From Candidatus Zipacnadia bacterium (GTDB taxonomy: Bacteria > Armatimonadota > Zipacnadia > Zipacnadales > JABUFB01), in NCBI GenBank assembly GCA_029821745.1, contig JALGSS010000005.1, positions 1 through 60,564 of the forward strand: a stretch of 60,564 bases of DNA. Direction: 5' to 3'. The number at the start of each line of letters is the position of its first letter. The stretch's first letter is position 1. The notes under the pieces were generated by a model, which was given only the letters and a program-made list of their open reading frames with translations, made no database searches and had not been told where the DNA came from. Of this stretch, positions 4,808-22,733 are shown one piece after another. The translations under genes were made by a program, and so were the position numbers.

Positions 4808-6089
4808 GCTCCAGGCCCTGGACGATATCCGCGATCATTGTGCGCACTGTGACCCAGCGGAAATCGAGTGTGCTGACTTGCCCGAGCCCAGTCCACCGCT
4901 CAAGCCGCCGCCCACCGTGAACGCGAGCCCGTCGGCCCTTTACGCGCACCTCACGTTCAGCAATCATCTGTTTGGCTTCATGGTCGCCGGCGAGGTCATG
5001 AAGATCGGCCAGCCCGAGCAAGTGGGCCCGCCAGCGGCCCTCAAAGCTCAGAGCGCTCCTCGATGGCCGTCGCTGCTGAACTGCCAGCCACTGCCCGGGG
5101 TCCGCGTGCTGCGCATGTGCGGAGAGTCTCGGTACATTCAGGTCGGCCCAGTCGAGAAGCTGTTCGCGATAACCCTCCGGGGCTTCGGCGCACTCATCCA
5201 TTTCGGCAAGCACCAGCGCATACACCAGATTCGCCCCTTGCATGAGTTCCGCGAACGACTGCGCGCGGTCCATCTCCTCGCGGAGTTCGGAGGACAACCT
5301 CTGGGTTTCGGGCACGGCCCAGAGTCGCGGGGTGTCACCGTCAGCCACACGCAGATCAATAAGCCGCGCCAGGAGCGCATCCGGATGCTCCTCCATGGTG
5401 CGGTCTCGAAGGAAGATCGCCTCTGCATGCTGCAGCGCCAGCGTCTTTGCCGCCGGCCATTCCTCAGGCGAGACGGGAAGCTTGGGATGCCAGTTGTGCT
5501 GTGCCGCCGTCTCCTGCTGGACCTCGCTGTCAAGCCCGCGACGATGCTTCAGACGCTCATAGAAGCCATCGAGCTTCTGGTGGTAGGCTCTGCGAAGACC
5601 CTCGAAGCGCCGGATGCCCCAGCTCTCGAGACCCGTCCAGTAGATGCTGCTGGGCATCTGGAGCACTGAGCGCCCGGCTTGCGCGCCAATGATGCCGGGC
5701 TCGTCGGGGCAGTTGCGCTGGAGAGATACGACGACGTGCTCCTCATACTCCCTGACGCGGTCCTGAATTTGCCCGGAGGATATCCGCTGCACTTCCAGAT
5801 CTCGGTACATCCAGGGAACGAAGAGCATGTAGCGGGCGCGTGTCTGGATGGTGCTGGTTCCGGGGAAGAAGAAGTCCGAGAACGCATCGCGGATCGTGCC
5901 AATGCCAAGCTGATCGAGCGTCTCGCGCTCCGCCCAGGCGCCGAGAAGTTCCATCATCCGGCGCTGCTGGTCAGCGGAGAAGTCGACCCAGGTCAGGCTT
6001 GCTGGCAAAGCGATTTCCCCCACTGATTGCGCGGCTCGGGCCCGGCGGCGGAAGGGCACGTGTAGACGAGCAGACATGATGAAGTTCAT
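4791..6089 (-). CDS. Hypothetical protein, DUF6361-like (tentative)
   Basis: 432-aa ORF, first gene of the three-gene module. The N-terminal signature LTWVDFSADQQRRMMELL...LGIGTIRDAFSDFFFPGTSTIQTRARYMLFVPWMY resembles what I recall of the DUF6361 family, which accompanies PLD plus helicase genes. This is assigned from memory, not from a search. Confidence 0.6.
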   Translation of the reverse strand: MNFIMSARLHVPFRRRARAAQSVGEIALPASLTWVDFSADQQRRMMELLGAWAERETLDQLGIGTIRDAFSDFFFPGTSTIQTRARYMLFVPWMYRDLEVQRISSGQIQDRVREYEEHVVVSLQRNCPDEPGIIGAQAGRSVLQMPSSIYWTGLESWGIRRFEGLRRAYHQKLDGFYERLKHRRGLDSEVQQETAAQHNWHPKLPVSPEEWPAAKTLALQHAEAIFLRDRTMEEHPDALLARLIDLRVADGDTPRLWAVPETQRLSSELREEMDRAQSFAELMQGANLVYALVLAEMDECAEAPEGYREQLLDWADLNVPRLSAHAQHADPGQWLAVQQRRPSRSALSFEGRWRAHLLGLADLHDLAGDHEAKQMIAEREVRVKGRRARVHGGRRLERWTGLGQVSTLDFRWVTVRTMIADIVQGLELENHA

Positions 6090-6277: not shown

Positions 6278-7048
6278 CTACGCTATCCCCAGTATCCATC
6301 CTTCAAGCTCTACCTGTCGCCGCTCTCCATCAGTCAGTGGTGGCATCATGTATCTCGGCAGAAAGCCGTTGTCGCAGGTCTCTTTGAGCCATCGGGCGGT
6401 GGCGTACGCGTCCTGTTGGTCGGCGGTGCGGTCTTCCCGCGAGTACCGGCCCTTGAAGATGGCCGGGTAGACCTCGACGATCGCCGACTTCCCAGAAGGA
6501 ATCTCCCAGCCATCGAAGGGCCAGAAGTGCACCCGATCCCCGACCTCGTTGCGGATATGCCAGAGCCAGGGAATCCCGGTGTGCGTGGACTTGGAGACTT
6601 GGCCCTGGACGTCGAACAGGAAGACCGACTTGGCCGAACTGGTCCACTTATCACAGAGGCGGAACTCATCAGGACTGCCAACGCGCTGGGGATCGCCAAA
6701 GCGAATGGCGTCCACCTTCACGTCCGGCTTGTGGGTGGGCCAATGCTCGACGAAGTCTTCAAGGAACTCATCCCACCCGGTAGGCCCATACCGCTCGAAG
6801 TAACTGTGCGGGAAGCTGAAGGCGTGGTCGATACCGGCTACGAACCGTTGATCGCATCTGGCCTGCTCAACCAGCCACTCGGCGATCTCCATCCGGGACC
6901 AGTTCCAGTGCTTGCCCTCCGGTGCGGCAGGGGTCCGGACCAACTCGGGCATCCCATCCTTGGCAGCGTATACTTGGAGGGTTCTCGAACGAGACCGCGT
7001 CGTCGCAGCCCCGCTGTAGTCGATGCCGATGTATTGGTCGAAGTCCAT
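6278..7048 (-). CDS. Hypothetical protein, possible RNase-H-like/DUF429-like fold (weak)
   Basis: 256-aa ORF, last gene of the nine-gene cluster, 45 nt downstream of the previous gene. The N-terminus MDFDQYIGIDYSGA resembles the first acidic strand of RNase-H-fold/DUF429-type proteins. No other motif recognised. Confidence 0.55.
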   Translation of the reverse strand: MDFDQYIGIDYSGAATTRSRSRTLQVYAAKDGMPELVRTPAAPEGKHWNWSRMEIAEWLVEQARCDQRFVAGIDHAFSFPHSYFERYGPTGWDEFLEDFVEHWPTHKPDVKVDAIRFGDPQRVGSPDEFRLCDKWTSSAKSVFLFDVQGQVSKSTHTGIPWLWHIRNEVGDRVHFWPFDGWEIPSGKSAIVEVYPAIFKGRYSREDRTADQQDAYATARWLKETCDNGFLPRYMMPPLTDGERRQVELEGWILGIA

Positions 7049-7092: not shown

Positions 7093-8376
7093 TCATTGCG
7101 CAGACGGCAACAGCAGCCGAAGATCGGCCTGTGCCTCCGCCTCCTCGCTCTCAAAGAGGCCCCTCAACTCCCCGTTGGTGATGGCCTCGTCACCCTTCTT
7201 CAGCCAGTCTCGATATTGTCCGACGAGCCACATGTAGCGGTCCAGGTCACGCAGCGATGCCTCGATAGTCGACAGTTCTCGGACCCGCTCCAGGTTCGCC
7301 ATGAAAGCCCTATAGGGATTGCCGGCATCCGGCACGCGCCCGCCCGGGCCGAGATGGTAAGAGACCATGATTCGGCAGAATGAATCGTAGATTGGATAGC
7401 GGTCACCGTCGACGAAGAAGTGTAGAATCTTGGAGGTGAAGCTCCAGTGACGCTGCGCCACTGCATCTCCCTCTGCGTTGGGCAGCGACGCGATCGCCTC
7501 AGCCAAGTCGTCCTCGTCCGCCGGAGGGTCGGCCATCACGTGCATGAGATGCTCGGCCATCCGCCAGATGGCGAACACGTTGGTCGAGTAGAGATCGTTG
7601 ATAGCGGCCGATTTCAGGATGCACGACTCTCGACCCCAGCCCGGGAACCGTTCGCCGAGTTGCTCGAAGGCTCTGTCGGTAGAAGACCACTGTGGGCATC
7701 GGGCGTGCAACCGGTTGGCGGCATCAATCTGTGCCTGCGTGATGGGAATGGCCGCCCTCGCCTGCTTTGGAGCAGGCTCAACGGGTGTCGCAGTTGGTTC
7801 CCGTCGCTCCGGGTAGACCAGCTCCCCGTCATCGCAGCAAATCGCGAAGCCGCCATCCTCATCTTCCTCGATGCTCCATACCCCATGCTTCTCCGGCCTG
7901 CACCACTCGAGTTCGCCGATAGCCGGACGGTAGAGAAAGTCGTAGCGGAGATCGTCGCAGACCCTTGCCCGACGGTTCTCCGAGTAGTGGACACGCGATG
8001 GATGGTTGACTGTGCAGACAATACGTTGGGCGTCGATCGTCCCAAGATTGGTGTCGGGATACCGCCCAATGATCCAATCCCTCACGGCCACGTTGGTGGT
8101 CGGGCTCCCGAGCTCCTCGACCGCCTCGCGAACCATCTGACGAACAGGTGGATAGTGCACCGCAACTCCTCCTGAGTGGCTGACCCAGGCCTCAGCAGCC
8201 TGGCACGTGATTGGGCTCGTCCAGATCCGGTCCAAGCAGAACACAAGCAGGGCGATGGCTGTAGCGACGAGTAGGGCCAGGACGGCGCCCAGCTGCGTGT
8301 TGCACCAGGTTAAGGCGCCTTGGGCAGACGAGAGACGTCGGTCGGTGAAACCGGCGTATGGTAGCTGTGTATCCAC
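7093..8376 (-). CDS. Hypothetical protein with N-terminal TM helix and C-terminal OGG-fold-like region (tentative)
   Basis: 427-aa ORF. There is a hydrophobic stretch LGAVLALLVATAIALLVFCL near the N-terminus. The C-terminal half (ILKSAAINDLYSTNVFAIWRMAEHL...HWSFTSKILHFFVDGDRYPIYDSF) resembles uncharacterised proteins labelled 8-oxoguanine-glycosylase OGG-fold. The start is uncertain: the annotated start overlaps the HerA-like gene by 66 nt, and the next in-frame ATG is about 80 codons downstream. Confidence 0.6.
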   Translation of the reverse strand: MDTQLPYAGFTDRRLSSAQGALTWCNTQLGAVLALLVATAIALLVFCLDRIWTSPITCQAAEAWVSHSGGVAVHYPPVRQMVREAVEELGSPTTNVAVRDWIIGRYPDTNLGTIDAQRIVCTVNHPSRVHYSENRRARVCDDLRYDFLYRPAIGELEWCRPEKHGVWSIEEDEDGGFAICCDDGELVYPERREPTATPVEPAPKQARAAIPITQAQIDAANRLHARCPQWSSTDRAFEQLGERFPGWGRESCILKSAAINDLYSTNVFAIWRMAEHLMHVMADPPADEDDLAEAIASLPNAEGDAVAQRHWSFTSKILHFFVDGDRYPIYDSFCRIMVSYHLGPGGRVPDAGNPYRAFMANLERVRELSTIEASLRDLDRYMWLVGQYRDWLKKGDEAITNGELRGLFESEEAEAQADLRLLLPSAQ

Positions 8377-10040
8377 CGGCCCTTGATGTAACGCACCTGG
8401 TTGCCACCAGGGAGGACGGCGAAGTCACCGGGTTCGGCTTCCGTGATGAAGCGATCAACCGTTGTCCTGGCCCTTCCCGGGAGACTCGCCGATTCGAGTG
8501 CCTTGCTTCGGTCCCTCTTCGTGCCCAAGCGCCCTATGACCTGGAAGCCACAGTTGGACAGAGCTCTGTAATCAACATCGCCCGGGTTCTGGGTTGCCAT
8601 CACCACACACACGCCGAATGATCTTCCTTGGCGAACCAGGTAGTTGAGGCCCCACTTAGCTGCACACTCATAGGGGTGGCTGGCGAACAGGGCCTGCTTA
8701 CCACCACCTCCCCCAATCTCGTCAATGAAGAGCAGTAGACGCGGTGATGAAGAGCCGGTGAGCGATCTCATCCAATTGTTGATGGCGCTTGTCACCTGAG
8801 CCACGACGAAGCTTCGGTCCTCGAACTCCATCACGTCGCCCAGGTTGATTATGCTGAGGGGGACGCGATCGTGTTCGCTCTGTGGGAGGAAGAGCTTGAT
8901 GTCCAGGGGTGTCCCCTCAAACCACTTGGCATCAGGCCCAGTGATAAGCCCGTTGACCTTGTTCAACAGGCGATTGCGCCGGTTCTCAGCATCAATATAT
9001 TGGCCGATCTCAAGTTCACCTATCTTGCTGAACGGAGGGTCTTGGATCAGGCGCATCAGGTTCGCAACGCCTTCCTTACCGTGGAGGCTGACTCCAGTGA
9101 GCCAAGCCGACTTCACAAGCTCAAACAGGAAGCTGCGCTCGTTCTCGATCTTCTGCCTCTTCGTGCCAGGATAGAGGCGATCGAGGAAGGCGTCCGTTTG
9201 GTTCCGGACCAATTCGTCCAAGTTACCGGACTCCTGGAGCTTCGCCACTCCTTCTGGCGCTGCGATCGCGGCGGGGAACCCCAACTGCACGCCACGAGGC
9301 ACTCGCGGCGTGTACACAACAGTGCGAGTTCGGGCACTGAGAAGTCCGGCGGTGCCCAGCGCGCTCTCCTTGCTGCAGCACCCGCTATGGCGTCTCCAGT
9401 GTTCGGACAGCTCGCGCTGTGCTGCCTTCATACGCTGTTGCTCAGAGTCGCCGTGGACCCAACCGGCCAACAGCTCGGGATCATCTCTGTCCAGCCAAAG
9501 CGCCATCGAGCTGATGTCGCCCTTGAGGTCCACTGCCACGCAAGGGATGCCTTGCTGAAGAGCTTCCTCCAACAGTGCTTTGGCGAGAACTGTCTTGCCA
9601 GACCCAGTGGCCCCGCAGATGAAGGCGTGCGTCAGCATCTTCTCCGCCTCAACATGGTAGCGGGCCCCGAGGTCGTCCTTCACTGCCCCAATCATCGTCC
9701 ATTCCCTGCCGAGGAACAGACCGGCAGGCGATGAGACCGCCGCATCGCCTGTCAGAAGACGAATGCGCCCATCGCCAAAGTCCGTCACGTCGATGACGAT
9801 GTCTGTCTCGCCATCAGCGACGTATCTGCCGCACCAGCGTCGGAGGTCGCTTCCCGTGAGCCGACGTGTTTGTGCATCGATGCGAAGAGCATAGCTCTCC
9901 CCTTCGGCATCCAGCGCCAACACTGACACTTGGTCTGTGATGCCCATATCTTCGAGCATCTCTGGCGGCACCTCAAGGCCGTCTCGACGAAGCCTGGATG
10001 CGGGGATGGAGTAGCACATGTCCGAAGCTGGTCCGGTCAT
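8310..10040 (-). CDS. HerA/FtsK-type (DUF87-like) P-loop ATPase with N-terminal B3-like barrel (tentative)
   Basis: 576-aa ORF. Walker A is FICGATGSGKT and Walker B RLLLFIDEIGG, followed by VCVVMATQNPGDVDY, typical of HerA/VirB4-like ATPases. The ATG overlaps the stop of the 95-aa gene (ATGA). The N-terminal ~110 aa end in RRLTGSDLRRWCGRYVADGETDIVIDV, which resembles the GW..F....L..GD.v.F tail of B3/EcoRII-N pseudobarrels. Confidence 0.85.
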   Translation of the reverse strand: MTGPASDMCYSIPASRLRRDGLEVPPEMLEDMGITDQVSVLALDAEGESYALRIDAQTRRLTGSDLRRWCGRYVADGETDIVIDVTDFGDGRIRLLTGDAAVSSPAGLFLGREWTMIGAVKDDLGARYHVEAEKMLTHAFICGATGSGKTVLAKALLEEALQQGIPCVAVDLKGDISSMALWLDRDDPELLAGWVHGDSEQQRMKAAQRELSEHWRRHSGCCSKESALGTAGLLSARTRTVVYTPRVPRGVQLGFPAAIAAPEGVAKLQESGNLDELVRNQTDAFLDRLYPGTKRQKIENERSFLFELVKSAWLTGVSLHGKEGVANLMRLIQDPPFSKIGELEIGQYIDAENRRNRLLNKVNGLITGPDAKWFEGTPLDIKLFLPQSEHDRVPLSIINLGDVMEFEDRSFVVAQVTSAINNWMRSLTGSSSPRLLLFIDEIGGGGGKQALFASHPYECAAKWGLNYLVRQGRSFGVCVVMATQNPGDVDYRALSNCGFQVIGRLGTKRDRSKALESASLPGRARTTVDRFITEAEPGDFAVLPGGNQVRYIKGRWIHSYHTPVSPTDVSRLPKAP

Positions 10041-10324
10041 CGCTCGGTCTCCTCCGTTTGCGCGGGGTCAGCGTTGACCGTCCCGCCAGCTGCTTTCGCT
10101 ACTCGCCCAGCCAGCCACCTGAGGACGCGAGGGGAGTACATGGCACCCGTAAGCCAAGAGCCCTGACCGTCGGCGACCAACTGCTGGTGGAAATCCGCGA
10201 CAGCGCTGGTCACATCGCCTTCTTGCAGGGTACTGCCATTCACTTGTGAACTGACGACCGTTGCCAGTGCGGTAACGGCCACAATCTCGCGAGCGTCCTC
10301 GATAGCCCGAGCCAGCAAAGTCAT
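10037..10324 (-). CDS. Small hypothetical protein (95 aa)
   Basis: Its ATG lies 1 nt after the stop of the 938-aa gene and is preceded by GGAGGAGAGA. Its stop overlaps the HerA-like ATG. This positional coupling is the main evidence; no motif recognised. Confidence 0.55.
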   Translation of the reverse strand: MTLLARAIEDAREIVAVTALATVVSSQVNGSTLQEGDVTSAVADFHQQLVADGQGSWLTGAMYSPRVLRWLAGRVAKAAGGTVNADPAQTEETER

Positions 10325-10325
10325 G

Positions 10326-13142
10326 TCATCTCTCCTCCACTTCAGCGTCTAAGCCAAGTTCACGCACAGTGGTGCCGAGGGGTCTCCCCCAACGCGCCAC
10401 AAACCAGCGGGTCACACGCGCCATCGCGGCTGGGTGAGCGACCAGATATCGCCAAGAGGTCCTTAGGAGGTCCATCTGCGGCAATAACCATCTCATGAGC
10501 ATCACATAGTTGGAGCCTTCTGGCCAGTAGATGCGGCGGTCACTCCGTCGCACGAAGGAGACCTTGTGGACCGCCTCGACGCGCACCGCAAAGCGAGCGG
10601 CTATCTCCGCCGCCAGCTCAGATAACGTCACCGCTCGCCCTTCGCTTTCCAGGATGGAGACCACCAAGTCCTCCTCTTCGATGCGCCATGCCAGCAGGTG
10701 CAGGGGCACTCTGTTTGTCCAGTTCCCTTGCCATTCACGCATGCCCCAAAGGCCTGAGCCCCACTGAGCGAAAAGATGAGTGTTACTCGACAGTGTGCTT
10801 GCCACGCTGGCCTTTCCTGCAGTTACGCCCTCGCCTGCCTGAATCTGTAGGACCATGTCCTCCACTGAGAGCACACATTCAGTCGCCTGTAGAGCACTGA
10901 CGAGTCGCTCCCTGAGATGAAGACGCACGTGCCCCCCTGTCGCCTTGGCCTCACTCTTCTGAGGCGCAGCTTCATGCGACACGTGGGGAGTGGACACCCC
11001 CGGCGCAGGTGCGTAGATAACGACCCTGTCTCCCGGTGCCGCCCCCTGCAAGTTCAGCCACTCAAACAATCCATCGCTCCGCAGCCGTTCGCCCTGAGAA
11101 TCCAACTCCACGTCAACTCGGTAGATCCCCTCAACCAGGATCTGTGCCATCCTCTTGTCGCTCCTCCCTTGCCCCAGACACGATCGGAAGATGCGCCTGG
11201 CGCCACGAGTGAATCGCAGTGACCGCGAGCGCAGCATTCTCATGTCGAGCGTCACTGCACTGCGCTTGGGTGGCACTTGCCCGAGGTTTTCTGGAGGCGC
11301 AGGTCTTTCAGGTTCTGGTAGAGCGGGGACTGGCGAGGGTGGCAGCACCGGCACACTGGCGCGCTGCTTAGGAGTGAAGGCGCGCACCACATCCTGAAGC
11401 TCAGTTTCCGTCAGTTCCTCAAGTGCCAGACCCAGTTGCTCAATCAACGATGCCAAAAGGTCACCGTCAGACTGAACGGCTTCAGACAATCGCAGTCGAC
11501 CCAGCCGCGAGTGTGTTGCCAGGTCCTCGGGCCGGCACCACCATTTGCCGCACTCGAGTTGCCAGGTCCGCGCTGAACGCGCTAAGTAGTCCGTCAGGAT
11601 CTCGTGAGCGATCCGCCGGACCGGGCCAGGACAGTCAGGGGACACCGCAGCGACACTTGCCATCAGCTTCCCCAGGTCCTGTGGCCCGTTCGCTTCCGCA
11701 AGGGCATCCCGGATGCTCTTAGCGGCAGGGCGCAGCAATCTGCGGAGAACCGGCCGAGCAGCGTGCCAGTAACCGTCTGAGACCCCCAAACCAAGTTCAG
11801 TGAGGTAGTCCACGATCCTCGCTGCTTCGACGGGGGGACGCGCTTGGGTCGGCCAAAGCCGCTGGATCAGGTCCTCGCCCGATACTCCGGTCACGGCCGT
11901 CGCGAGGCCATCGGCCAGCTTCTTGCCGGCCTCACCGGGGACAAGGATCAACTCACCATTCGCAAGCACGAGGACCCCTTCACCAATGAGCGATACCCTC
12001 AGGTCGTCTTCTGCCTGGCGAACAAGCCGGGAGATAAGCGCTTTGCCATCTTCGCCCTCAGCCCATTCAGGATCAGCCAGGCCAACCTGGGCCTCGATGT
12101 CATCGGGGGCAAGCGCATGCTCAAACACTTCTGCCTGCGGGGCCGCCGCCGGCGCAACTGAGTGCAGGTACCGTAGCGCTCGTTCCGTGCTCTTGAGTTT
12201 GGCCTTCGACAGCCACTGGGAGAACGGATCGCTGTCACTCAAGTGCTCATGGTATGTCTCGAGAAGTTGCCGACGGAGTTGGTTTCGGTGGGCAACCGAC
12301 AGGTCGCCAAACCACTCGAGGGCCTCGTTCAGCCACGGCGAGGCGGCCAGTTGGCCATTGCGAAGCCACGTTACCGCCTGTGTATTGAACAGCGCCGTTT
12401 CGAGTCGGAGCCTGTCCGACGCGGACAGCGCTGTACGGCTAAGCCTCCCCAGTTCCCACCAAAGCCGCTCAAAAGGCAGCACGCAGGCGACGTCGCCCAA
12501 GACGACGATGGCTGATTGCGATAGGTCACCTTCGGAGATGCCTTGGTCGCGTGATTGCCGCATCGTCAGGAGAGCAAAGCTGGGTTCGAATTGCAGCCGC
12601 GGCTCGAACCACTCCCGCAACATCCACTTGCCGCCACGCTCAACGAAGTGGGGAGACCGCTCGAGCGGAGCTGTCAGTGCTCGTTCACTCAGGGAGCCGC
12701 CGTGCCATCGGACGATCTCTTCGGTGAGCACGGAGATCCTCTGCGGAAGCCCGCGCCAGTAGAGACTTCGGTATGCCAAAGCCAGGACGGGAGACTTCCT
12801 GGCTTCGTCCATCCGGTCCCAGAGCAGGAGCGAGGTATCGCCACCACTCCCAGTCCGGAAGCGATAGTCGCAGCGTAGCACGTCCCCGAGGGCATCAGGA
12901 GCCGCGCACAGCCGCGTCGCCAACCGCTCAATTGGCAGCGGCTTGCCCTCGGCACTGAGCACCCCGCAGGCCCGGTCAGCCAGACGAAGGCAAGCTGCTA
13001 AGTACCGCGCCAGATATCCGCACTTCTTCTTGACGCCGAGCACGCACGTCACCCCGAGTCTGCCGGCTTTGGTGCGGCAAGTTGCCGACCTCAATAACCG
13101 TTGGTCTGCGGGCATGAGTGGACTGCTGCAATGGGCCACCAA
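10326..13142 (-). CDS. Large hypothetical protein with several HARE-HTH/winged-helix-like modules and a B3-like segment
   Basis: 938-aa ORF. The start is uncertain: TTG at 13142, ATG at 13115 or GTG at 12962. It has repeated winged-helix-like modules ending in aromatic-Gly patterns typical of HARE-HTH: PLPIERLATRL...YRFRTGSGGDTSLLLWDR; ISVLTEEIVRW...PHFVERGGKWMLREW; VLSVEDMVLQI...HLFAQWGSGLWGMREW; AVTLSELAAEIAARF. The middle segment RSLRFTRGARR...GERLRSDGLFEWLNLQGAAPGDRVVIY resembles the HerA N-terminal domain. No catalytic motif seen. Confidence 0.7.
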   Translation of the reverse strand: MVAHCSSPLMPADQRLLRSATCRTKAGRLGVTCVLGVKKKCGYLARYLAACLRLADRACGVLSAEGKPLPIERLATRLCAAPDALGDVLRCDYRFRTGSGGDTSLLLWDRMDEARKSPVLALAYRSLYWRGLPQRISVLTEEIVRWHGGSLSERALTAPLERSPHFVERGGKWMLREWFEPRLQFEPSFALLTMRQSRDQGISEGDLSQSAIVVLGDVACVLPFERLWWELGRLSRTALSASDRLRLETALFNTQAVTWLRNGQLAASPWLNEALEWFGDLSVAHRNQLRRQLLETYHEHLSDSDPFSQWLSKAKLKSTERALRYLHSVAPAAAPQAEVFEHALAPDDIEAQVGLADPEWAEGEDGKALISRLVRQAEDDLRVSLIGEGVLVLANGELILVPGEAGKKLADGLATAVTGVSGEDLIQRLWPTQARPPVEAARIVDYLTELGLGVSDGYWHAARPVLRRLLRPAAKSIRDALAEANGPQDLGKLMASVAAVSPDCPGPVRRIAHEILTDYLARSARTWQLECGKWWCRPEDLATHSRLGRLRLSEAVQSDGDLLASLIEQLGLALEELTETELQDVVRAFTPKQRASVPVLPPSPVPALPEPERPAPPENLGQVPPKRSAVTLDMRMLRSRSLRFTRGARRIFRSCLGQGRSDKRMAQILVEGIYRVDVELDSQGERLRSDGLFEWLNLQGAAPGDRVVIYAPAPGVSTPHVSHEAAPQKSEAKATGGHVRLHLRERLVSALQATECVLSVEDMVLQIQAGEGVTAGKASVASTLSSNTHLFAQWGSGLWGMREWQGNWTNRVPLHLLAWRIEEEDLVVSILESEGRAVTLSELAAEIAARFAVRVEAVHKVSFVRRSDRRIYWPEGSNYVMLMRWLLPQMDLLRTSWRYLVAHPAAMARVTRWFVARWGRPLGTTVRELGLDAEVEER

Positions 13143-13202
13143 GGGTACTAATGCTCATTCCAAGCGATCTGTTACCGCACGATCCTCCGGCAACGGAGAT
13201 GG

Positions 13203-14228
13203 TCAATCTTCCTCCGCCACATCCAGTTCGATGATGTCGTGGGTCAGGCGGGTTACGTGGATGCCGTTCTCGATCAGCAGCGCCGCGAACTGCTCGCCGT
13301 CCATCAGCGCCACCGGCACCGCGTCCGGGCGCTCAGCCTCAGCCTGTGCGCGCTTGCTGAAGTCGCTCGTGGTGATGATGAGGCCTTGTTCGTGGGTGCC
13401 CAGACTCCCCCGCACCTGCTGCACGATCTGCGCCTGCACGTTGGCCTTCCAGCGCTTCACCTGCACCGCCATCCGGGTGCGCACCACCTCGCCGGTTACC
13501 AGAGTCCCGCGGACGTCGATGCCCCCGTCTTTGGCGCGCGCGGTCACCTCGATGTCCTCGAAACCCACCTCCGCGAGTAGCTGGCCCACCAGTTCCTCGA
13601 ACTCCGTGGGGTCCATCTTGTGCAGTCGCTTGCGCAGGTCCTTGTGCACCTGGCGGTTGTGCTGCTCGATCTGGAAGGCCAAGCCCTCCCCCATCCACTT
13701 CGTCAGCCCGAACAGGCCGCGTCCATGCTTGACGAAGCGTGGCTGCTCACCCCGGCCTTTGTAGCGCTTGATCTCTGAGATGATCTGGCTGTACATGGTC
13801 ATCTCGGGGGTCTTGCCTTCGGTCACCAACCAGCCCATTTCGATGGCCTTCTCGGTGATGTCGCGGTAATACATCGGGCGCTTGTCGCCACACGCGTCGA
13901 GCACTTTGATGGCCGACTCGGTGAATGAGTAGGTGTCGGCGGCGACGGTGGGAGCAGGCACGGGAGCGGGCGCCGGTGCGCCCTCCCGCAGAGCAAAGAC
14001 CCCGCGCTTCACGCGCACGAAGGTAGATTGATCGCCGTGCCGACGAATGTCCTCGCCCAGCACACCGCGAAGCGTGGCCTCGGGTGTGGCACCCCCGGTT
14101 GGCCACAGCTTCTGGTCGAGGATGCGGCGGGTGATCTCTTTGACGGGGAGCGGTCCTCCCGCGTCCTGCAGGACCTTGATTGCGGCTTCTCGTGCGCTCA
14201 TGGCTGTTCTTCCTTCCATACAGCTCAC
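13203..14228 (-). CDS. Mrr-family restriction endonuclease with two N-terminal HARE-HTH domains
   Basis: 341-aa ORF. There are two wHTH modules: EAAIKVLQDAGGPLPVKEITRRIL...FVRVKRGVFALRE, and ESAIKVLDACGDKRPMYYRDITEKAI...FVKHGRGLFGLTKW. The C-terminal Mrr_cat-like core is FEELVGQLLAEVGFEDIEVTARAKDGGIDVRG...MAVQVKRW...GLIITTSDFS. The likely start is the ATG at 14201, preceded by GGAAGGAAG. The ORF-track start at 14228 overlaps the upstream stop (ATGA). Confidence 0.85.
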   Translation of the reverse strand: MSCMEGRTAMSAREAAIKVLQDAGGPLPVKEITRRILDQKLWPTGGATPEATLRGVLGEDIRRHGDQSTFVRVKRGVFALREGAPAPAPVPAPTVAADTYSFTESAIKVLDACGDKRPMYYRDITEKAIEMGWLVTEGKTPEMTMYSQIISEIKRYKGRGEQPRFVKHGRGLFGLTKWMGEGLAFQIEQHNRQVHKDLRKRLHKMDPTEFEELVGQLLAEVGFEDIEVTARAKDGGIDVRGTLVTGEVVRTRMAVQVKRWKANVQAQIVQQVRGSLGTHEQGLIITTSDFSKRAQAEAERPDAVPVALMDGEQFAALLIENGIHVTRLTHDIIELDVAEED

Positions 14229-15424
14229 CGACGCAGGACCGCAGCGGTAGTCGAAGCCTGTCCCCGCGATAAGCTCTCGGCAAACTGCTTGATGCCCCTG
14301 TATTCGACGATGGCCTCTTCGGCAGGAGCCTTCTTTGTGTCCGCCAGCTTGTTGACGATGCGTTCACGCACGCATCCGGACCGATCAACGAGTACGAGTT
14401 CCTCGAGTCGCTCGCTCGAGTTGACGTTGGCGTCTACCTCGACAAGGTAGTTGGTCAGTTGATCGGCCGGTGGGAGCGAGTACCCGATGATTACCAGGCG
14501 CTTGCACTTGCGGAGTGCCATACGTGCTATCGCCCACAGGTTCTCAAGCAGCTGACACCGCGCTATTGGCTTGGTCCAGAGCGGCGGAACGATGAACCGG
14601 CGAGCCATATCCCCGAGGTCATACTCCGGCCCGTCGCCAGGCTGGAGCAGTTCCACAGAAGTGATTCGTTCGTAGTTGAGGTCACCGTCATTGCCCAATT
14701 GACGGCGTTCGTCCAAGTGACAGGGGTGTGCGTCTGGCGGCTCAGACCATAAGCTTTCAGGAGGGACGCCCATGTTGCCCACACGCCAACTCAGGCAACC
14801 GTGCAGATGGAGCAGGAACGCCTTGCCTCCCCGACGTGCTTCGCACAGCGCATTGCGGACACTGCGTAGCCGGATATCCCTGAGCCCGAGATCGACCTCG
14901 CAGCCCTTGCCAGCGTTGGACGAGGCGTCCTCCATCGCCGTGTCCATGACTGTGTCGTAGTTAAAGGTGATGACGGTGTCCCCCGGCTCAAGCGTGTCGG
15001 CGATCGCTCGGTGGTACGCGCAGTTCCTGCTCGCTGTCGTCTCGGCGATGAGCGCCGCAATGGCCTTGCGGTATGCCACCACTGGCTCAGCGAAGTTCCC
15101 CCTGCGCCCCGGCTTGTCGTCTGCGCCGGAGGTCGCCATGTGCACACGGAGAGCCTTGGTGAACTCCGCCCGAATGAAGTACTCCTCCATCTTAGCGTCA
15201 CCGTAGCTGGGGAGTCCCGCGCCGGCCACAGCATCATCGAGCTGTTCCTTCGCCTGCGCGACGAGGCTGCCGGGGGTTGCAGCGTTGCCGAGCTGCTTGA
15301 AGAAGTCTGCGTCCAGAGGGGGTTGAGGCGCCGGGTCAGGCCGCACGAAGCTGGCCCCCCGCGTTGCCCCAGCCCCCAGTATCACCAGTGTCGGAAGACT
15401 ACGACCTTGGCAGATCATATGCAC
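14225..15424 (-). CDS. SIR2-like (SIR2_2-type) protein, paralogue B
   Basis: About 397 aa. It has the N-terminal Rossmann loop LVILGAGATRGAS, then VITFNYDTVMD, then FLLHLHGC (the GAG / xNYD / HG triad of defence-type SIR2 domains). The best start is the ATG at 15418, 6 nt after GGAGGTG. Confidence 0.8.
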   Translation of the reverse strand: MHMICQGRSLPTLVILGAGATRGASFVRPDPAPQPPLDADFFKQLGNAATPGSLVAQAKEQLDDAVAGAGLPSYGDAKMEEYFIRAEFTKALRVHMATSGADDKPGRRGNFAEPVVAYRKAIAALIAETTASRNCAYHRAIADTLEPGDTVITFNYDTVMDTAMEDASSNAGKGCEVDLGLRDIRLRSVRNALCEARRGGKAFLLHLHGCLSWRVGNMGVPPESLWSEPPDAHPCHLDERRQLGNDGDLNYERITSVELLQPGDGPEYDLGDMARRFIVPPLWTKPIARCQLLENLWAIARMALRKCKRLVIIGYSLPPADQLTNYLVEVDANVNSSERLEELVLVDRSGCVRERIVNKLADTKKAPAEEAIVEYRGIKQFAESLSRGQASTTAAVLRR

Positions 15425-15472
15425 CTCCGCTGAAGTTGACGTCCATCCGCTCTACGCCCTGCTCAGGCCGTC

Positions 15473-16597
15473 TCAGTAGATGGCCTCTTCCGGTTTGTAC
15501 GTGCTTTCCTGCTCGATCAATGGCGCGACTTCGGCCGCCAACTGGTCCCAGTCAGCGTTCGGCGTGAATGGATGGAATGGCTGCGGGTTCTGCATCATGG
15601 TAGCTGACCAGAGGCCCTCGCATGACCGCCGTGGATGATCCATCAAGCGCGTTTCATCCAAGCAGCGTGAGACGCTGTAGTGGGTCCGACAGATGAAGTC
15701 ATCCCAGGTGTCGAGCAGTTCATCTTCCGATCTGATGTCGATGATCTCCACCGACTCGATGCCTCGAGAATCACTGTCTCCCCAAGCCTCTTTCATGAGC
15801 CTGACGGCTTCGGTATCCGTAGCGGGAGCGCCGTAGCCGAAGACCGTGAGGATGTAGGCCCGGCTCAGGGCCTCCCTGACAGCCTGCCATGAGAGACTGA
15901 TCGACGGGTCCTTGGTATAGTCCTTGTTGGTCACCGGGAAGAGCAGGCGGCTCGGCTGAAGCTGCCTGCCGCATTTCTGGCACTGGGTCCCGATTGAGCC
16001 TTGTGTCGCCGGGCTGCACGCCATGCAGTACCCGATGCCCGCGTTGCCGTGCAGGAACAACACCTGAGGCACGACGTCAGCGCCGAACCTCGATGCTACT
16101 CGGCAGGCTGCCTGCCACAGCAGCGGGTCCCAGTTAAAGCTGGTGATGACGTCCTTGTCTCGGAGACACAGGATCAAGTAGTCATAGAGGGTGGGCTCAT
16201 CCGGAAGCGCCAATGACCCGAAGTAACCCGATACCTTACCCTCCAGAAGCTCCAGAAGCTGAGAGTCTTCCCCAGTCTCTGCCAAGTGTGAGTAGAGGGC
16301 CTCGAAGTCCCCGGCTTGGTCTGCGTATCCGCGACTATCCAAGAGGGAGCGCAGGTCCAGGGCGTCCACAACGTCCGCCATCAGCGGCAGGTTGCGCCCG
16401 TTCCTGTCAGCATCGGTCAGCGTCGCCCGGCTGGCGCCGGCCCCCACGATGACAAGGTGAGGGCCGCCGAAATCCGGCTCCATGAGTTCAGGTTCAGGTG
16501 CGGACGCGCCAGACAACCCGCTCACTCCTCCGCGCCGCCCATGCGGTACTTGATGTCGTAGTTGATGATGAAGTCCAGCTCCTGAAGCGTCAGGCAA
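15473..16597 (-). CDS. SIR2-like protein, paralogue A, with CxxC...CxxC zinc-ribbon insert
   Basis: The motifs are LVIVGAGASRATL, VITSFNWDPLL, VLFLHGN, then GYCMACSPATQGSIGTQCQKCG. The real start is probably the ATG at 16483 (MEPDFGG) or a TTG about 30 nt upstream. The first ~38 codons of the tracked ORF look non-coding. Confidence 0.8.
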   Translation of the reverse strand: MPDASGAGLHHQLRHQVPHGRRGGVSGLSGASAPEPELMEPDFGGPHLVIVGAGASRATLTDADRNGRNLPLMADVVDALDLRSLLDSRGYADQAGDFEALYSHLAETGEDSQLLELLEGKVSGYFGSLALPDEPTLYDYLILCLRDKDVITSFNWDPLLWQAACRVASRFGADVVPQVLFLHGNAGIGYCMACSPATQGSIGTQCQKCGRQLQPSRLLFPVTNKDYTKDPSISLSWQAVREALSRAYILTVFGYGAPATDTEAVRLMKEAWGDSDSRGIESVEIIDIRSEDELLDTWDDFICRTHYSVSRCLDETRLMDHPRRSCEGLWSATMMQNPQPFHPFTPNADWDQLAAEVAPLIEQESTYKPEEAIY

Positions 16598-16649: not shown

Positions 16650-17591
16650 TCATGTCGGTGTTAGGCGTGCGGCAGCTTCGGGACCCAGGCTGCGAAGCAC
16701 CGCCAGCCAAGTGTCCGCTGTGATTCTTGCTGCGTTCACCACACACGCCGCCAGCAGCACCACGCGTGCCGAGGCGTCTGACTGCTCCGAGTACGCCTCC
16801 GGGAGCTTCACAAAGGACTCGCCATAGGTTCGTCTGGCGACGTCCTCGAAGTGGACATGCGTGAGTTCCGCTGGCCGTGACCTGTAAGGGAGGACAGTAT
16901 CGACGGTCTTGGCGGCCCGATCAAGGTCCGCCTCGACGCGGGAATGGAAACCTTTCATGCTGCTGAACCGGGTCCCGGAGAGGTCCAGGTGCCGGCCGAC
17001 GTGGACCGGTGTGCAGAGGTCGGCGATATGGTGGGCAACCATCCCGAGGTACGCGCCAGCATTGAGCAGGAACTCCTCTTCGTCGTAGACACCCTCCAGT
17101 TCGCCGCTCGCGTATAGCTCCACGAAGTTCGATGTCCCAGTGGCATAGCGAACGATCTGCAACGGACAGCCTCGGTCCCGCGGGTTCTCGCTGTCCACGT
17201 AACAGCGATGCATCAGCACTCGGTTGACAACACCCTCCTGCTCATCAGGCTCCCAAAGGATGTGTAGCTCGTCTGGCAGCGTGGCCCCGGTGTCGATTCC
17301 TTCCCAAAGCCGTCCCATGGTGGTCCCGTGTTCGGCGGGCATGGCATCGGCGGCGAGAGCCGCAACCCGGAGATGCGCAAGTCTGTTCACTATCGTCTCC
17401 TCCTCGGCTCTCGGACCAGGGCTCTCTCGCCAGCATTCGTCTCCCAGAGAAGCGCTGGCACCCCAAAGGGAACTGGTCAGGCCGTCTGGGATCGGTTGGC
17501 TGTCCTGCGACACCGGACGCCAAGGCGCTGAAACAGGCGGCACAAGTACGTCATACAGCCCCAAACTTGCGACGGCCTCCGATGACTGCAT
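16650..17591 (-). CDS. Hypothetical protein, zinc-dependent phospholipase C / S1-P1-nuclease-like (tentative)
   Basis: 313-aa ORF, first gene of the cluster. The segment AYLGMVAHHIADLCTPVHVGRH...GFHSRVEADLD resembles the His/Asp metal-ligand pattern of the Zn-dependent PLC fold. The N-terminal ~85 aa are low complexity, so the start is uncertain. Confidence 0.5.
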   Translation of the reverse strand: MQSSEAVASLGLYDVLVPPVSAPWRPVSQDSQPIPDGLTSSLWGASASLGDECWRESPGPRAEEETIVNRLAHLRVAALAADAMPAEHGTTMGRLWEGIDTGATLPDELHILWEPDEQEGVVNRVLMHRCYVDSENPRDRGCPLQIVRYATGTSNFVELYASGELEGVYDEEEFLLNAGAYLGMVAHHIADLCTPVHVGRHLDLSGTRFSSMKGFHSRVEADLDRAAKTVDTVLPYRSRPAELTHVHFEDVARRTYGESFVKLPEAYSEQSDASARVVLLAACVVNAARITADTWLAVLRSLGPEAAARLTPT

Positions 17592-17931
17592 GCCACTGAG
17601 ATCCGATTATCCGTGCTCATTGGAGATGTCTCTCAGGTCCGTCGCAAGTGATTCAGCCGCCATAGCATATCGTCATTGAAGCATTACGCGATAGTAAGAA
17701 GTGCACGGTTAGGTGACATAGTGACTTCTCCGTACATCGGAATACTCCTCCCGCTCCCCAGCCAGCAGGCTAAGCAACGGCCAAATCGGACGGCGAGAGC
17801 TGCACTGGGCGCTGGGTGTCTGGTAGCCGGAGGGTCATCCGCCCCTGCTCTCAACAGAGGTAACGGCCCGACGCGGGTGGAATGAGATGTGCGCAGTCGT
17901 GGTATCGTGAATGCCGCCCAACAGGAGCGCC
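17592..17931. promoter_or_regulatory. Divergent intergenic region between the nine-gene cluster and the BREX operon
   Basis: This is a 340-bp gap between oppositely oriented operons, with a locally AT-richer stretch around 17640-17720. AGGAG lies 5 nt upstream of the brxA ATG at 17932. No specific -35/-10 pair called with confidence. Confidence 0.3.
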
Positions 17932-19261: not shown

Positions 19262-19274
19262 CGGGGGCCATCCG

Positions 19275-22715: not shown

Positions 22716-22733
22716 CCGGGGGGACACACCCAG

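What the first reader, a model, noticed from the sequence alone, without database searches (positions are those of the whole stretch)
8310..14228. HARE-HTH reader theme plus a shared B3-like barrel linking the 938-aa protein to the HerA ATPase
The Mrr nuclease has two HARE-HTH modules, and the next gene has at least four wHTH modules with the same aromatic-Gly tails (FRTGSGGDTSLLLW, FVERGGKWMLREW, FAQWGSGLWGMREW). The literature has proposed HARE-HTH domains as readers of DNA or DNA modification. In addition, the middle of the 938-aa protein (GERLRSDGLFEWLNLQGAAPGDRVVIY) and the HerA N-terminus (TRRLTGSDLRRWCGRYVADGETDIVIDV) share a pattern resembling the end of B3/EcoRII-N DNA-binding pseudobarrels. 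The three genes 938-aa, 95-aa and HerA are translationally coupled. A sensor-scaffold plus motor sub-complex seems plausible.
Basis: inference. Interest (0 to 1): 0.7.

Follow-up and report, generated by a model that had tools for sequence, protein, structure and literature searches.

The report
B3-barrel HerA motor with wHTH partner
Three tightly coupled genes in a bacterial defence island encode a ring ATPase and a large DNA-reader protein that share an old copy of the same plant-type (B3-like) DNA-binding barrel. This gene pair recurs across many uncultured bacterial and archaeal lineages, and I found no description of it.

Summary

- **Mrr (13203-14228):** it has two Pfam HARE-HTH modules plus Mrr_cat.
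- **938-aa protein:** modelled with a 52-sequence alignment (mean pLDDT 83.7), it is an array of about eight winged-helix units around one beta-alpha barrel (res 627-724). The three quoted "aromatic-Gly tails" are winged-helix wing hairpins. Four units are related by profile, and the last two align to Mrr's tandem HARE-HTH.
- **Barrel fold:** its best structural matches are plant B3 domains and the B3-like N-domain of LlaJI.R1.
- **Shared barrel:** it is homologous to HerA residues 5-103 (hhalign 96.9%, E 1.3e-10; shuffled controls E >= 0.011). Pairwise BLAST shows nothing.
- **Coupling:** the junctions read TGAcATG and ATGA.
- **Conservation:** in about 20 distinct loci from many phyla, every ATPase with this N-domain follows a [B3-like]-[2x HARE-HTH] gene. 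About 58 relatives without the N-domain have no such gene. Mrr, SIR2 and BREX are not conserved neighbours.
- **Databases:** the two non-ATPase proteins have no significant PADLOC, Pfam or NCBIfam match (one marginal PADLOC hit, E 0.0064), and I found no paper on the cassette.

Most likely this is an undescribed HerA/FtsK-type conflict module with a DNA sensor-adaptor and a motor. Its function is inferred, not shown.

The parts
10326..13142 (-). Partner gene (938-aa ORF). The probable true start is the GTG at 13043, giving about 905 aa. It encodes a multi-winged-helix protein with a B3-like barrel.
   Evidence: ORF. Homologues start at V34. Residues 1-31 are disordered in the model. DNA read. 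It is 35% identical over 871 aa to the L001 partner, E 2e-149.
12828..12947 (-). Winged-helix unit 1 (res 66-105). The wing carries FRTGSGGDTSLLLW.
   Evidence: AF2 secondary structure: H71-78, H82-91, E95-97, E102-105. N1 vs C2 hhalign 96.1%, E 3.5e-9.
12618..12788 (-). Winged-helix unit 2 (res 119-175). The wing carries FVERGGKWMLREW.
   Evidence: AF2: H119-130, H136-147, H153-162, E166-169, E172-175. N2 vs C2 93.8%, E 1.8e-7.
11535..12524 (-). Four further winged-helix-like units (res ~207-267, 336-400, 403-461, 463-536).
   Evidence: Seen only as a secondary-structure pattern in the AF2 model, pLDDT mostly 70-94. Foldseek matches tandem winged-helix proteins: UFL1/DDRGK1, SelB WH2-4 and Dcc1.
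10962..11270 (-). B3-like DNA-binding pseudobarrel of the partner (res 625-727). It contains GERLRSDGLFEWLNLQGAAPGDRVVIY.
   Evidence: AF2 topology is b-a-b-a-b-b-b-a-b-b, pLDDT about 77-96. Foldseek gives B3 domains 7et6, 5os9, 1yel and 4i1k at TM (per target) 0.57-0.71, and LlaJI.R1-N 6c5d at 0.52-0.54, all with prob 0.99-1.00. This is the most conserved part of the family.
10728..10925 (-). HARE-HTH module C1 (res 740-805). The wing carries FAQWGSGLWGMREW.
   Evidence: Pfam HARE-HTH matches 39 of 52 relatives, best 1.2e-12; the window protein gives E 0.14. The family profile hits RNA polymerase delta subunits at E 2-7e-3. It aligns with Mrr's first HARE-HTH.
10479..10709 (-). HARE-HTH-like module C2 (res 812-888).
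   Evidence: C1 vs C2 hhalign 97.6%, E 3.7e-12. It aligns with Mrr's second HARE-HTH.
10037..10324 (-). Small 95-aa gene, translationally coupled on both sides.
   Evidence: Junctions TGAcATG and ATGA. It is 39% identical to the L001 96-aa protein, E 5e-17. An HMM finds it in 10 loci, only in the closest subfamily. No Pfam, PADLOC or NCBIfam hit.
8310..10040 (-). HerA/FtsK-superfamily ATPase gene (576 aa).
   Evidence: Pfam HerA_C 41.9 bits and DUF87 28.5 bits, both above cut-off. Best PADLOC hit is mad8 at 6.9e-15, a match to the generic ATPase core. 817 relatives found.
9732..10028 (-). B3-like N-terminal domain of the ATPase (res 5-103). It contains TRRLTGSDLRRWCGRYVADGETDIVIDV.
   Evidence: hhalign against the partner barrel: 96.9%, E 1.3e-10, and 92.3%, E 5.6e-7, with controls. 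Its HMM hits partner barrels directly: L055 8e-15, L023 2e-6. Pfam B3 is the only recurring family, in 3 of 35 members, best E 0.034.
8313..9698 (-). ATPase core. Walker A is GATGSGKT (res 143-150) and Walker B is FIDE (D440, E441).
   Evidence: Columns G143, G146-T150, D440 and E441 are invariant in 40 relatives.
13203..14228 (-). Neighbouring Mrr-type nuclease with 2x HARE-HTH (about 13980-14201 and 13695-13928) and Mrr_cat (13275-13625). It shares the HARE-HTH theme but is not a conserved partner.
   Evidence: Pfam. PADLOC PDC-S02 at 1.7e-39. Not among the called genes beside the cassette in the loci where these were listed.

Best explanation
Window 8310-13142 (minus strand) holds a self-contained cassette of three translationally coupled genes.

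1. The first gene encodes a large DNA-reader or adaptor protein. It has about six N-terminal winged-helix units, a flexible linker, a B3-like DNA-binding pseudobarrel, a tandem HARE-HTH pair and a short helical tail.
2. The second gene encodes a 95-aa protein found only in the closest subfamily.
3. The third gene encodes a HerA/FtsK-superfamily P-loop ATPase. Its N-terminal domain, where HerA proteins normally carry the HAS barrel, is an ancient paralogue of the partner's B3-like barrel.

The invariant core across lineages is the pair [B3-like + 2x HARE-HTH protein] followed by [B3-like-HerA ATPase].

Shown here: the folds, the homology of the two barrels, the coupling, the strict co-occurrence, intact ATPase motifs, and a location in defence or mobile islands.

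Inferred mechanism:
- The many winged-helix, HARE-HTH and B3 modules recognise a feature of invading DNA, either sequence, modification or structure.
- The partner then recruits or gates the ring ATPase. The small protein and perhaps the paralogous barrels mediate the contact.
- The ATPase loads on the DNA and translocates it.
- This blocks replication or packaging, or feeds the DNA to whatever effector is encoded nearby. Here that is the adjacent HARE-HTH-Mrr nuclease. In other relatives it may be a C-terminal domain fused to the ATPase.

This corresponds to the 'HerA/FtsK capture' logic proposed from comparative genomics.
For: - **Fold.** The AF2 model has mean pLDDT 83.7 with the alignment, against 36.4 without it. 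Foldseek returns B3 and LlaJI.R1-N hits and tandem winged-helix proteins.
- **Barrel homology.**. Direct HMM cross-hits appear.
- **HARE-HTH.**
- **Coupling.**
- **Conserved cassette.** L001 has 869+96+572 aa, L003, L004/5 have 914+102+573, and L009 has 897+103+581. L007, L010, L011 and L012 are two-gene forms.
- **Survey of 92 loci.** The partner gene lies immediately upstream in every testable locus whose ATPase has the N-domain. It is absent from about 58 relatives that lack the N-domain.
- **ATPase motifs.** They are invariant.
- **Neighbours in other loci.** These include type I-C cas genes, type I RM, toxin-antitoxin pairs, a KAP NTPase with QatB, and integrases.
- **Window neighbours.** The window itself carries Azaca, Mrr/PDC-S02 and type I BREX.
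- **Variable C-terminal domains on ATPase relatives.** DUF4145, SLFN_AlbA_2, a weak HEPN hit and DnaJ. This pattern is typical of conflict systems.
- **Concept.** HerA/FtsK paired with fast-evolving multi-winged-helix proteins is described in PMC10853773.
Against: - No experiment or published phenotype supports a defence role.
- No nuclease or other toxic effector is conserved with the core pair, so the killing or blocking step is unknown.
Its B3 fold is inferred through homology to the partner's modelled barrel.
- Foldseek E-values for B3 hits are 0.02-0.3, with the whole 938-aa chain as query. Sequence matches to Pfam B3 are below threshold.
- The two barrels within a locus are no more alike than those between loci (0.119 vs 0.128, p 0.955). 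There is therefore no sequence sign of shared specificity or direct co-adaptation.
- Integrases nearby fit a mobile-element function equally well.
Confidence: 0.55

Rival explanations
1. The cassette is not an immune module. It is a DNA-handling device of a mobile element, serving partition, transfer or packaging. The multi-winged-helix protein would mark the element's own DNA, and the FtsK/HerA-type motor would move it, as in FtsK-like conjugative translocators.
For: - Integrases or recombinases lie within a few kb in L003, L004/5 and L009.
- The ATPase also gives weak matches to TrwB, VirB4, TraD and the Ced DNA-import ATPases.
- No effector is conserved.
Against: - No relaxase, replication, capsid or other transfer genes are consistently adjacent.
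- The neighbours are mostly defence genes: cas, RM, TA, BREX, Azaca, QatB/KAP.
- Relatives carry C-terminal DUF4145, SLFN_AlbA_2 or HEPN-like domains that are typical of conflict systems.
Confidence: 0.2
2. The whole minus-strand string is one larger system, and the HARE-HTH theme reflects joint action on one DNA mark. The string is SIR2-like x2, then Mrr, the 938-aa gene, the 95-aa gene and HerA. In this view it is a SIR2-HerA or Mrr-HerA composite, or an accessory arm of the neighbouring BREX.
For: - All these genes are on the same strand.
- The SIR2-like 399-aa gene and Mrr overlap by 4 nt.
- Mrr and the partner share a tandem HARE-HTH pair.
- SIR2-HerA systems exist (PMC11514289, listed).
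- HARE-HTH-REase fusions are reported as BREX backup effectors (PMC12839542).
Against: - No Mrr or SIR2 gene lies beside the cassette, and no BREX genes, in any locus where called genes were listed.
- About 160 nt separate the Mrr stop from the probable partner start.
- NCBIfam HerA_antiphage scores 23.7 bits against a cut-off of 800.
- SIR2_2 on the 399-aa protein is below threshold (23.7 vs 24.5 bits).
Confidence: 0.15
3. The shared barrel is not B3-like. It could be an AbrB/MazE-type swapped-hairpin barrel or a divergent HAS barrel. Alternatively, the resemblance of the two segments is a generic beta-hairpin-GD motif with no common descent.
For: - Pfam MazE_antitoxin gives weak hits in 3 of 52 partner relatives (E 0.026).
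- Pairwise BLAST is insignificant.
- A sequence-profile search of the PDB returned only spurious HisF hits.
Against: - The profile-profile signal is far above the shuffled controls, and there are direct HMM cross-hits down to 8e-15.
- The Foldseek list is dominated by B3 domains with TM per target of 0.57-0.71.
- Pfam B3 is the only recurring family for the ATPase N-domain, and no HAS-barrel hit appears at E <= 1 in 35 members.
Confidence: 0.07

Closest known systems
HerA/FtsK 'capture' conflict systems (Rakesh, Aravind & Krishnan, NAR 2024, PMC10853773; BRC systems in PMC12839542)
   Same: A HerA/FtsK-superfamily motor in mobile defence neighbourhoods, paired with a fast-evolving protein built of several winged-helix domains. 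The proposed logic is that DNA readers localise the motor to invading DNA.
   Different: The described versions are built around an Orc/Cdc6 AAA+ ATPase plus inactive and active restriction-endonuclease domains, or around BREX-like parts. None of these is in this cassette. The B3-like N-domain on the ATPase, the paralogous barrel in the partner and the tandem HARE-HTH are not mentioned in the sections I read.
LlaJI.R1 / McrB-type restriction motors
   Same: A B3-like DNA-binding domain sits at the N-terminus of a ring-forming NTPase. The LlaJI.R1 N-domain (6c5d) is among the structural matches.
   Different: The motor there is an AAA+ GTPase, not HerA/FtsK. It works with a McrC-type nuclease, which is absent here. 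No second protein carries a paralogous barrel.
B3 / EcoRII-N / BfiI-C DNA-binding pseudobarrels
   Same: The fold matches: about seven strands and two or three helices, and the C-terminal 'W..x..L..GD.v.i' segment. TM per target is 0.57-0.71.
   Different: There is no significant sequence match to Pfam B3 (best E 0.034). The context is an ATPase and a winged-helix array, not a nuclease or a transcription factor.
SIR2-HerA and DUF4297-HerA anti-phage systems
   Same: A HerA-family ATPase in a defence island that works with a partner protein.
   Different: The partner here has no recognisable enzymatic domain. NCBIfam HerA_antiphage scores 23.7 bits against a cut-off of 800. No HAS barrel was detected.
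HARE-HTH-Mrr type IV-like nucleases (PADLOC PDC-S02) and the HARE-HTH of RNA polymerase delta, ASXL and HB1
   Same: The neighbouring Mrr is a plain member. The partner's C1-C2 pair aligns to Mrr's tandem pair and to delta subunits.
   Different: The partner has no nuclease domain. The window copy is below Pfam's own threshold.
MADS mad8 (best PADLOC hit) and YjgR/DUF853 (best PDB hit)
   Same: Similarity of the P-loop ATPase core: mad8 6.9e-15, and YjgR 8.8e-7 over the Walker A region.
   Different: MADS is an eight-gene operon (mad1-mad8). No other mad protein matched in the cassette, and only BREX PglX gave a weak mad2 hit (3e-9). The YjgR match covers only res 137-180.

Membership tests
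HARE-HTH (Pfam PF05066) | Mrr protein: a sequence match to the family model above the gathering score | tested here: met
   124 bits against a cut-off of 25.9, in 2 stretches.
HARE-HTH (Pfam PF05066) | 938-aa protein: a sequence match above the gathering score | tested here: inconclusive
   The window protein gives 13 bits, E 0.14 (res 777-804), below the cut-off. 39 of 52 relatives match at E <= 1, best 1.2e-12. The family profile aligns to Mrr's tandem HARE at 91.4%, E 9e-7, and hits RpoE delta at E 2-7e-3.
Winged helix-turn-helix fold | A three-helix bundle followed by a beta-hairpin wing | tested here: met
   About eight H-H-H-E-E units in the AF2 model, pLDDT mostly above 80. Foldseek hits tandem winged-helix proteins.
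B3 / DNA-binding pseudobarrel | Partner residues 625-727: a seven-stranded open barrel with two helices, structurally superposable on B3, EcoRII-N or BfiI-C | tested here: met
   Foldseek gives 7et6, 5os9, 1yel, 4i1k and the ARF structures at prob 0.99-1.00 and TM per target 0.57-0.71, and LlaJI.R1-N at 0.52-0.54. E-values are 0.02-0.4 because the whole 938-aa chain was the query.
B3 / DNA-binding pseudobarrel | A sequence match to Pfam B3 (PF02362) above threshold | tested here: not met
   The best is E 0.034, in 3 of 35 ATPase N-domains. B3 is not among the 25 most frequent families for partner members.
B3 / DNA-binding pseudobarrel | ATPase residues 5-103 adopt the same fold | tested here: inconclusive
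   This is inferred only from homology to the modelled partner barrel.
B3 / DNA-binding pseudobarrel | Binds DNA through the N-arm and C-arm loops | not testable with these tools
   Needs EMSA or a co-structure.
HerA/FtsK superfamily ATPase | P-loop core with Walker A, Walker B and the family signatures | tested here: met
   HerA_C 41.9 bits (cut-off 22) and DUF87 28.5 bits (cut-off 23.2). G143-T150, D440 and E441 are invariant.
Canonical HerA (HerA-NurA) | An N-terminal HAS barrel and a NurA nuclease partner | tested here: not met
   No HAS-barrel family appears at E <= 1 in 35 N-domains. No NurA is seen in the window or the loci. NCBIfam HerA_Thermprot scores 16 bits against a cut-off of 800.
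SIR2-HerA / DUF4297-HerA defence systems | An adjacent SIR2 or DUF4297 effector and membership of the anti-phage HerA family | tested here: not met
   HerA_antiphage scores 23.7 bits against a cut-off of 800. The SIR2-like genes lie three genes away and are absent from the homologous loci.
MADS | The eight-gene mad1-mad8 operon | tested here: not met
   In the cassette only a mad8-like ATPase core matches, at 6.9e-15. The only other mad hit in the window is a weak mad2 match on BREX PglX (3e-9). The operon is described.
HerA/FtsK capture systems (PMC10853773) | HerA/FtsK together with Orc/Cdc6 AAA+, an inactive REase, an active REase and winged-helix domains | tested here: not met
   HerA/FtsK and multi-winged-helix proteins are present. 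No Orc/Cdc6 or REase domain is found in the cassette or in conserved neighbours. It works like this class but is not a member as defined.

The most novel reading that the evidence does not exclude
The pair is a new, nuclease-free anti-invader system. The partner's B3-like barrel docks into, or substitutes within, the ring of paralogous B3-like barrels that crowns the HerA hexamer in place of the HAS barrel. Binding of marked or foreign DNA by the HARE-HTH and winged-helix array would thus directly gate loading of a DNA pump. That pump alone would strip or stall phage replication or packaging.
Probability: 0.2. Interest if true: 0.8.

Novelty: new variant of a known kind. Interest (0 to 1): 0.6.

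Why it matters
HerA/FtsK motors are turning up in many bacterial immune systems, but how they are aimed at foreign DNA is mostly unknown. This cassette offers a clean, minimal case. A motor has swapped its usual N-terminal barrel for a B3-type DNA-binding barrel, and it is always encoded after a partner carrying a paralogue of that barrel plus HARE-HTH modules that have been proposed to read modified DNA.

If the inferred mechanism is right, it gives a testable two- or three-protein model for how DNA readers load a ring translocase. It would also add a defence-type module found mainly in uncultured phyla, including an Asgard archaeon, that current catalogues miss. Finally, it would extend the prokaryotic range of the B3 fold beyond restriction endonucleases.

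Tried and rejected
- **Word-index homology search.** The search with the 938-aa protein, and again with its family alignment, returned only the query. The exhaustive HMMER search was needed.
- **Single-sequence AlphaFold.** The model was useless, with pLDDT 36.
- **Pairwise BLAST of the two barrels.** Not significant.
- **Sequence-profile search of the PDB.** With the ATPase N-domain it gave only chance HisF hits. With the whole family profile it was swamped by coiled-coil hits from distant members' tails, apart from RpoE delta.
- **Foldseek against viral structures.** Nothing useful.
- **Co-variation of the two barrels.** I tested whether barrels in one locus are more alike than those across loci. 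They are not (0.119 vs 0.128, p 0.955), so I dropped the idea of recent duplication or shared specificity.
- **Possible fusion of the small protein.** It shows no similarity to any part of the partner proteins in the two-gene loci.
- **MADS.** Considered because mad8 was the best PADLOC hit, and rejected because only the generic ATPase core matches.
- **SIR2-HerA.** Considered because of the upstream SIR2-like genes, and rejected (and the loci).
- **Literature.** The HARE-HTH founding paper (PMC3272235) is not held. Four literature searches found no description of this cassette.

Full report
**Setting**

The window is a GC-rich (about 62-65%) defence island. Its minus strand carries, in order:
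- A complete Azaca system. ZacC occupies 1-2946 and is cut by the window end (2.7e-297). ZacB occupies 2939-4807 and ZacA 4791-6089.
- A 256-aa orphan and a DUF7669 protein.
- The three genes of the finding: HerA 8310-10040, the 95-aa gene 10037-10324, and the 938-aa ORF 10326-13142.
- A HARE-HTH-Mrr nuclease (13203-14228; PADLOC PDC-S02, 1.7e-39).
- Two weakly related SIR2-like genes and a protein with a weak phospholipase C-like match.

A type I BREX system (BrxA, BrxB, BrxC, PglX, PglZ, BrxL) runs the other way from 17911 to 30302.

**Checking the observation**

Mrr has two Pfam HARE-HTH stretches (124 bits) and an Mrr_cat domain.

The gene junctions read gagaTGAcATGact (938-aa gene to 95-aa gene) and gagcgATGAccgg (95-aa gene to HerA). 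The three genes are therefore translationally coupled.

The 938-aa protein has no Pfam, NCBIfam or convincing PADLOC hit of its own. It is also rare:
- The word-index search found only itself.
- An exhaustive HMMER search of 1.84 billion representative proteins found 55 relatives at E <= 1e-3. About eight of these are full length, and the conserved core is res ~620-880.
- Homologues start at the position of V34, and res 1-31 are disordered. The true start is probably the GTG at 13043.

**Structure of the large protein**

AlphaFold failed without an alignment (pLDDT 36.4). With the 52-sequence alignment A1 it gave mean pLDDT 83.7. The model shows:
- About eight helix-helix-helix-strand-strand units, at res ~66-105, 119-175, 207-267, 336-400, 403-461, 463-536, 743-801 and 826-882.
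- A disordered linker at res 596-621.
- One beta-alpha barrel at res 627-724, with the order b-a-b-a-b-b-b-a-b-b.

Profile comparison links four of the units. C1 vs C2 gives 97.6%, E 3.7e-12. N1 vs C2 gives 96.1%, N2 vs C2 93.8%, and N1 vs C1 88%.

The evidence that these units are HARE-HTH is as follows:
- The window protein is below Pfam's HARE-HTH threshold (E 0.14).
- 39 of 52 relatives match the model at E <= 1, the best at 1.2e-12.
- The family profile hits RNA polymerase delta subunits, the archetypal HARE-HTH proteins, at E 2-7e-3.
- Mrr's tandem HARE pair aligns over 150 columns to res 737-888 (91.4%, E 9e-7).

The HARE-HTH theme shared by the two neighbouring genes is therefore real. 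The count of "at least four" winged-helix modules is an underestimate.

**The barrel**

Foldseek was run against the PDB with the whole 938-aa chain as query. No hit reached E <= 1e-3, but the list is unambiguous in kind:
- Plant B3 domains: the ARF DNA-binding domains, TEM1 7et6, NGA1 5os9, At1g16640 1yel and VRN1 4i1k. TM per target is 0.57-0.71 for the stand-alone domains, and prob is 0.99-1.00.
- The B3-like N-terminal domain of the restriction motor subunit LlaJI.R1 (6c5d; TM 0.52-0.54).
- Tandem winged-helix proteins: UFL1/DDRGK1, SelB WH2-4 and Dcc1.

**The barrel is shared with the ATPase**

BLASTP between HerA residues 1-123 and the 938-aa protein is not significant (E 2.3). Profiles give a different answer:
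- I compared a 48-sequence alignment of the partner barrel with a 98-sequence alignment of the ATPase N-terminus. The result is 96.9% probability, E 1.3e-10 over 96 columns.
- A reversed template and 30 column-shuffled templates never exceeded score 18, E 0.011.
- The session's own hhalign on independent alignments gives 92.3%, E 5.6e-7, matching HerA 8-103 to partner 628-730.
- In other loci the ATPase-N HMM hits the partner barrel directly: 8e-15 in L055 and 2e-6 in L023.
- Pfam B3 is the only family that recurs among ATPase N-domains (3 of 35, best E 0.034). No HAS-barrel match appears.
I treat this as a lead only.

Its fold is inferred from this homology.

**A conserved cassette**

Contigs encoding close ATPase relatives carry the same three genes:
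- L001: 869+96+572 aa. The partner is 35% identical (E 2e-149) and the small protein 39% identical (E 5e-17).
- L003, L004/5 (914+102+573 aa) and L009 (897+103+581 aa).

More distant relatives carry a two-gene form: L007 (768+591 aa), L010, L011 and L012.

I scanned one genome per species with the ATPase alignment. The scan found 333 relatives and kept 80 loci. I then surveyed all 92 loci and the window with HMMs for each module:
- Every locus whose ATPase has the B3-like N-domain, and for which upstream DNA is available, has a [B3-like]-[2x HARE-HTH] gene immediately upstream. This covers 28 loci, about 20 of them distinct.
- None of the roughly 58 ATPase relatives that lack the N-domain has such a gene.
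- The small gene occurs in 10 loci, all in the subfamily closest to the window.

The hosts are mostly uncultured lineages: Zipacnadia, WS1, Delta- and Gammaproteobacteria, Nitrospirae, Acidobacteria, Chloroflexi, Patescibacteria, Armatimonadota, Planctomycetota and a Promethearchaeota (Asgard) MAG.

The two barrels within a locus are no more alike than barrels from different loci (0.119 vs 0.128, p 0.955). They are ancient paralogues.

In the loci whose called genes were listed, Mrr, SIR2 and BREX genes are not beside the cassette. The neighbours there are type I-C cas genes, type I RM, toxin-antitoxin pairs, KAP/QatB and integrases.

**The ATPase**

The Walker A, Walker B and other family columns are invariant. 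The nearest characterised relatives match only the P-loop core:
- YjgR/DUF853 in the PDB (8.8e-7)
- mad8 in PADLOC (6.9e-15)
- NCBIfam HerA_antiphage (23.7 bits against a cut-off of 800)

Some relatives carry extra C-terminal domains: DUF4145, SLFN_AlbA_2, a weak SAV2148-type HEPN hit, or DnaJ. This is the variable-tail pattern common in conflict systems. From memory, not tested here, DUF4145 has been classed with HEPN domains.

**Mechanism**

Shown here: the folds, the homology, the coupling, the co-occurrence, intact motor motifs and the island context.

Inferred:
- The partner is a multivalent DNA reader.
- It recruits or gates the ring ATPase on foreign DNA. The contact may run through the small protein or the paralogous barrels.
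- The motor then translocates the DNA.
- The outcome is delivered by the motor itself or by variable effectors. In this window the adjacent Mrr is the obvious candidate.

This is the logic proposed for "HerA/FtsK capture" systems (PMC10853773; PMC12839542). The defining Orc/Cdc6 and REase parts of those systems are absent here.

The closest functional analogue for "B3-like reader fused to a ring NTPase" is LlaJI.R1/McrB, which uses a different motor class and a McrC nuclease.

The main weakness is that no effector is conserved and nothing has been tested experimentally. A role in the DNA handling of a mobile element cannot be excluded.

**Novelty**

Four literature searches found no description of this cassette. 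The two non-ATPase proteins have no significant match in PADLOC 2.0, Pfam or NCBIfam; the only trace is a marginal PADLOC MTase_II hit on the 938-aa protein (E 0.0064). I rate the cassette a new variant of a known kind, the HerA/FtsK-based conflict modules, with moderate to high interest.

Noticed in passing
window 1-6089 (-): A complete Azaca system. ZacC occupies 1-2946, runs off the window end and scores 2.7e-297. ZacB occupies 2939-4807 (4.6e-161, PLD-like). ZacA occupies 4791-6089 (4e-111, DUF6361).
   Followed up: partly
window 17911-30302 (+): A full type I BREX operon (BrxA, BrxB, BrxC/PglY, PglX, PglZ, BrxL). It is divergently oriented from the minus-strand gene string that contains the cassette.
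   Followed up: partly
window 14225-16597 (-): Two distantly related SIR2-like genes of 399 aa and 374 aa. Both have N-terminal (I/V)xGAGA(S/T)R motifs, and BLASTP between them gives E 0.003. The 399-aa gene overlaps the Mrr start by 4 nt. Its Pfam SIR2_2 score is just below threshold (23.7 vs 24.5 bits). Neither has a convincing PADLOC match; the 399-aa protein gives only Aga_SIR2 at E 0.0009.
   Followed up: partly
window 16650-17591 (-): A 313-aa protein with only a weak zinc-dependent phospholipase C match (E 0.0019). It sits at the head of the minus-strand string, next to BREX.
   Followed up: no
window 7093-8376 (-): A 427-aa ORF with DUF7669 (4.9e-14, res 77-150). As listed it overlaps the 3' end of the HerA gene by 67 nt. 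The real start is probably further downstream, near res ~80. It is not found beside the cassette in other loci.
   Followed up: no
window 6278-7048 (-): A 256-aa orphan between the DUF7669 gene and ZacA. It has only a sub-threshold NCBIfam hit to the C-terminal part of a MobB/unknown-domain fusion family.
   Followed up: no
L055:3630-5885 (Planctomycetota MAG): The partner protein here seems to carry two tandem B3-like modules. The ATPase-N HMM hits res 297-396 and res 425-506. The ATPase in this locus is about 990 aa, with a long C-terminal extension.
   Followed up: no
P0026, P0032, P0039, P0042, P0055, P0081, P0092 (ATPase relatives): Relatives of the ATPase carry variable C-terminal domains: DUF4145, SLFN_AlbA_2, a weak SAV2148-like HEPN hit, or a DnaJ domain. 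These are possible built-in effectors or adaptors.
   Followed up: partly
L068 (Promethearchaeota MAG), L025 (Patescibacteria MAG): The ATPase and partner pair also occurs in an Asgard archaeon and in a candidate-phyla-radiation bacterium. This implies wide horizontal spread.
   Followed up: no
The word-index protein search missed every relative of the 938-aa protein, including ones 35-38% identical over about 760-900 residues. The exhaustive HMMER search found them. An 'orphan' verdict from the fast search alone would have been wrong.
   Followed up: yes
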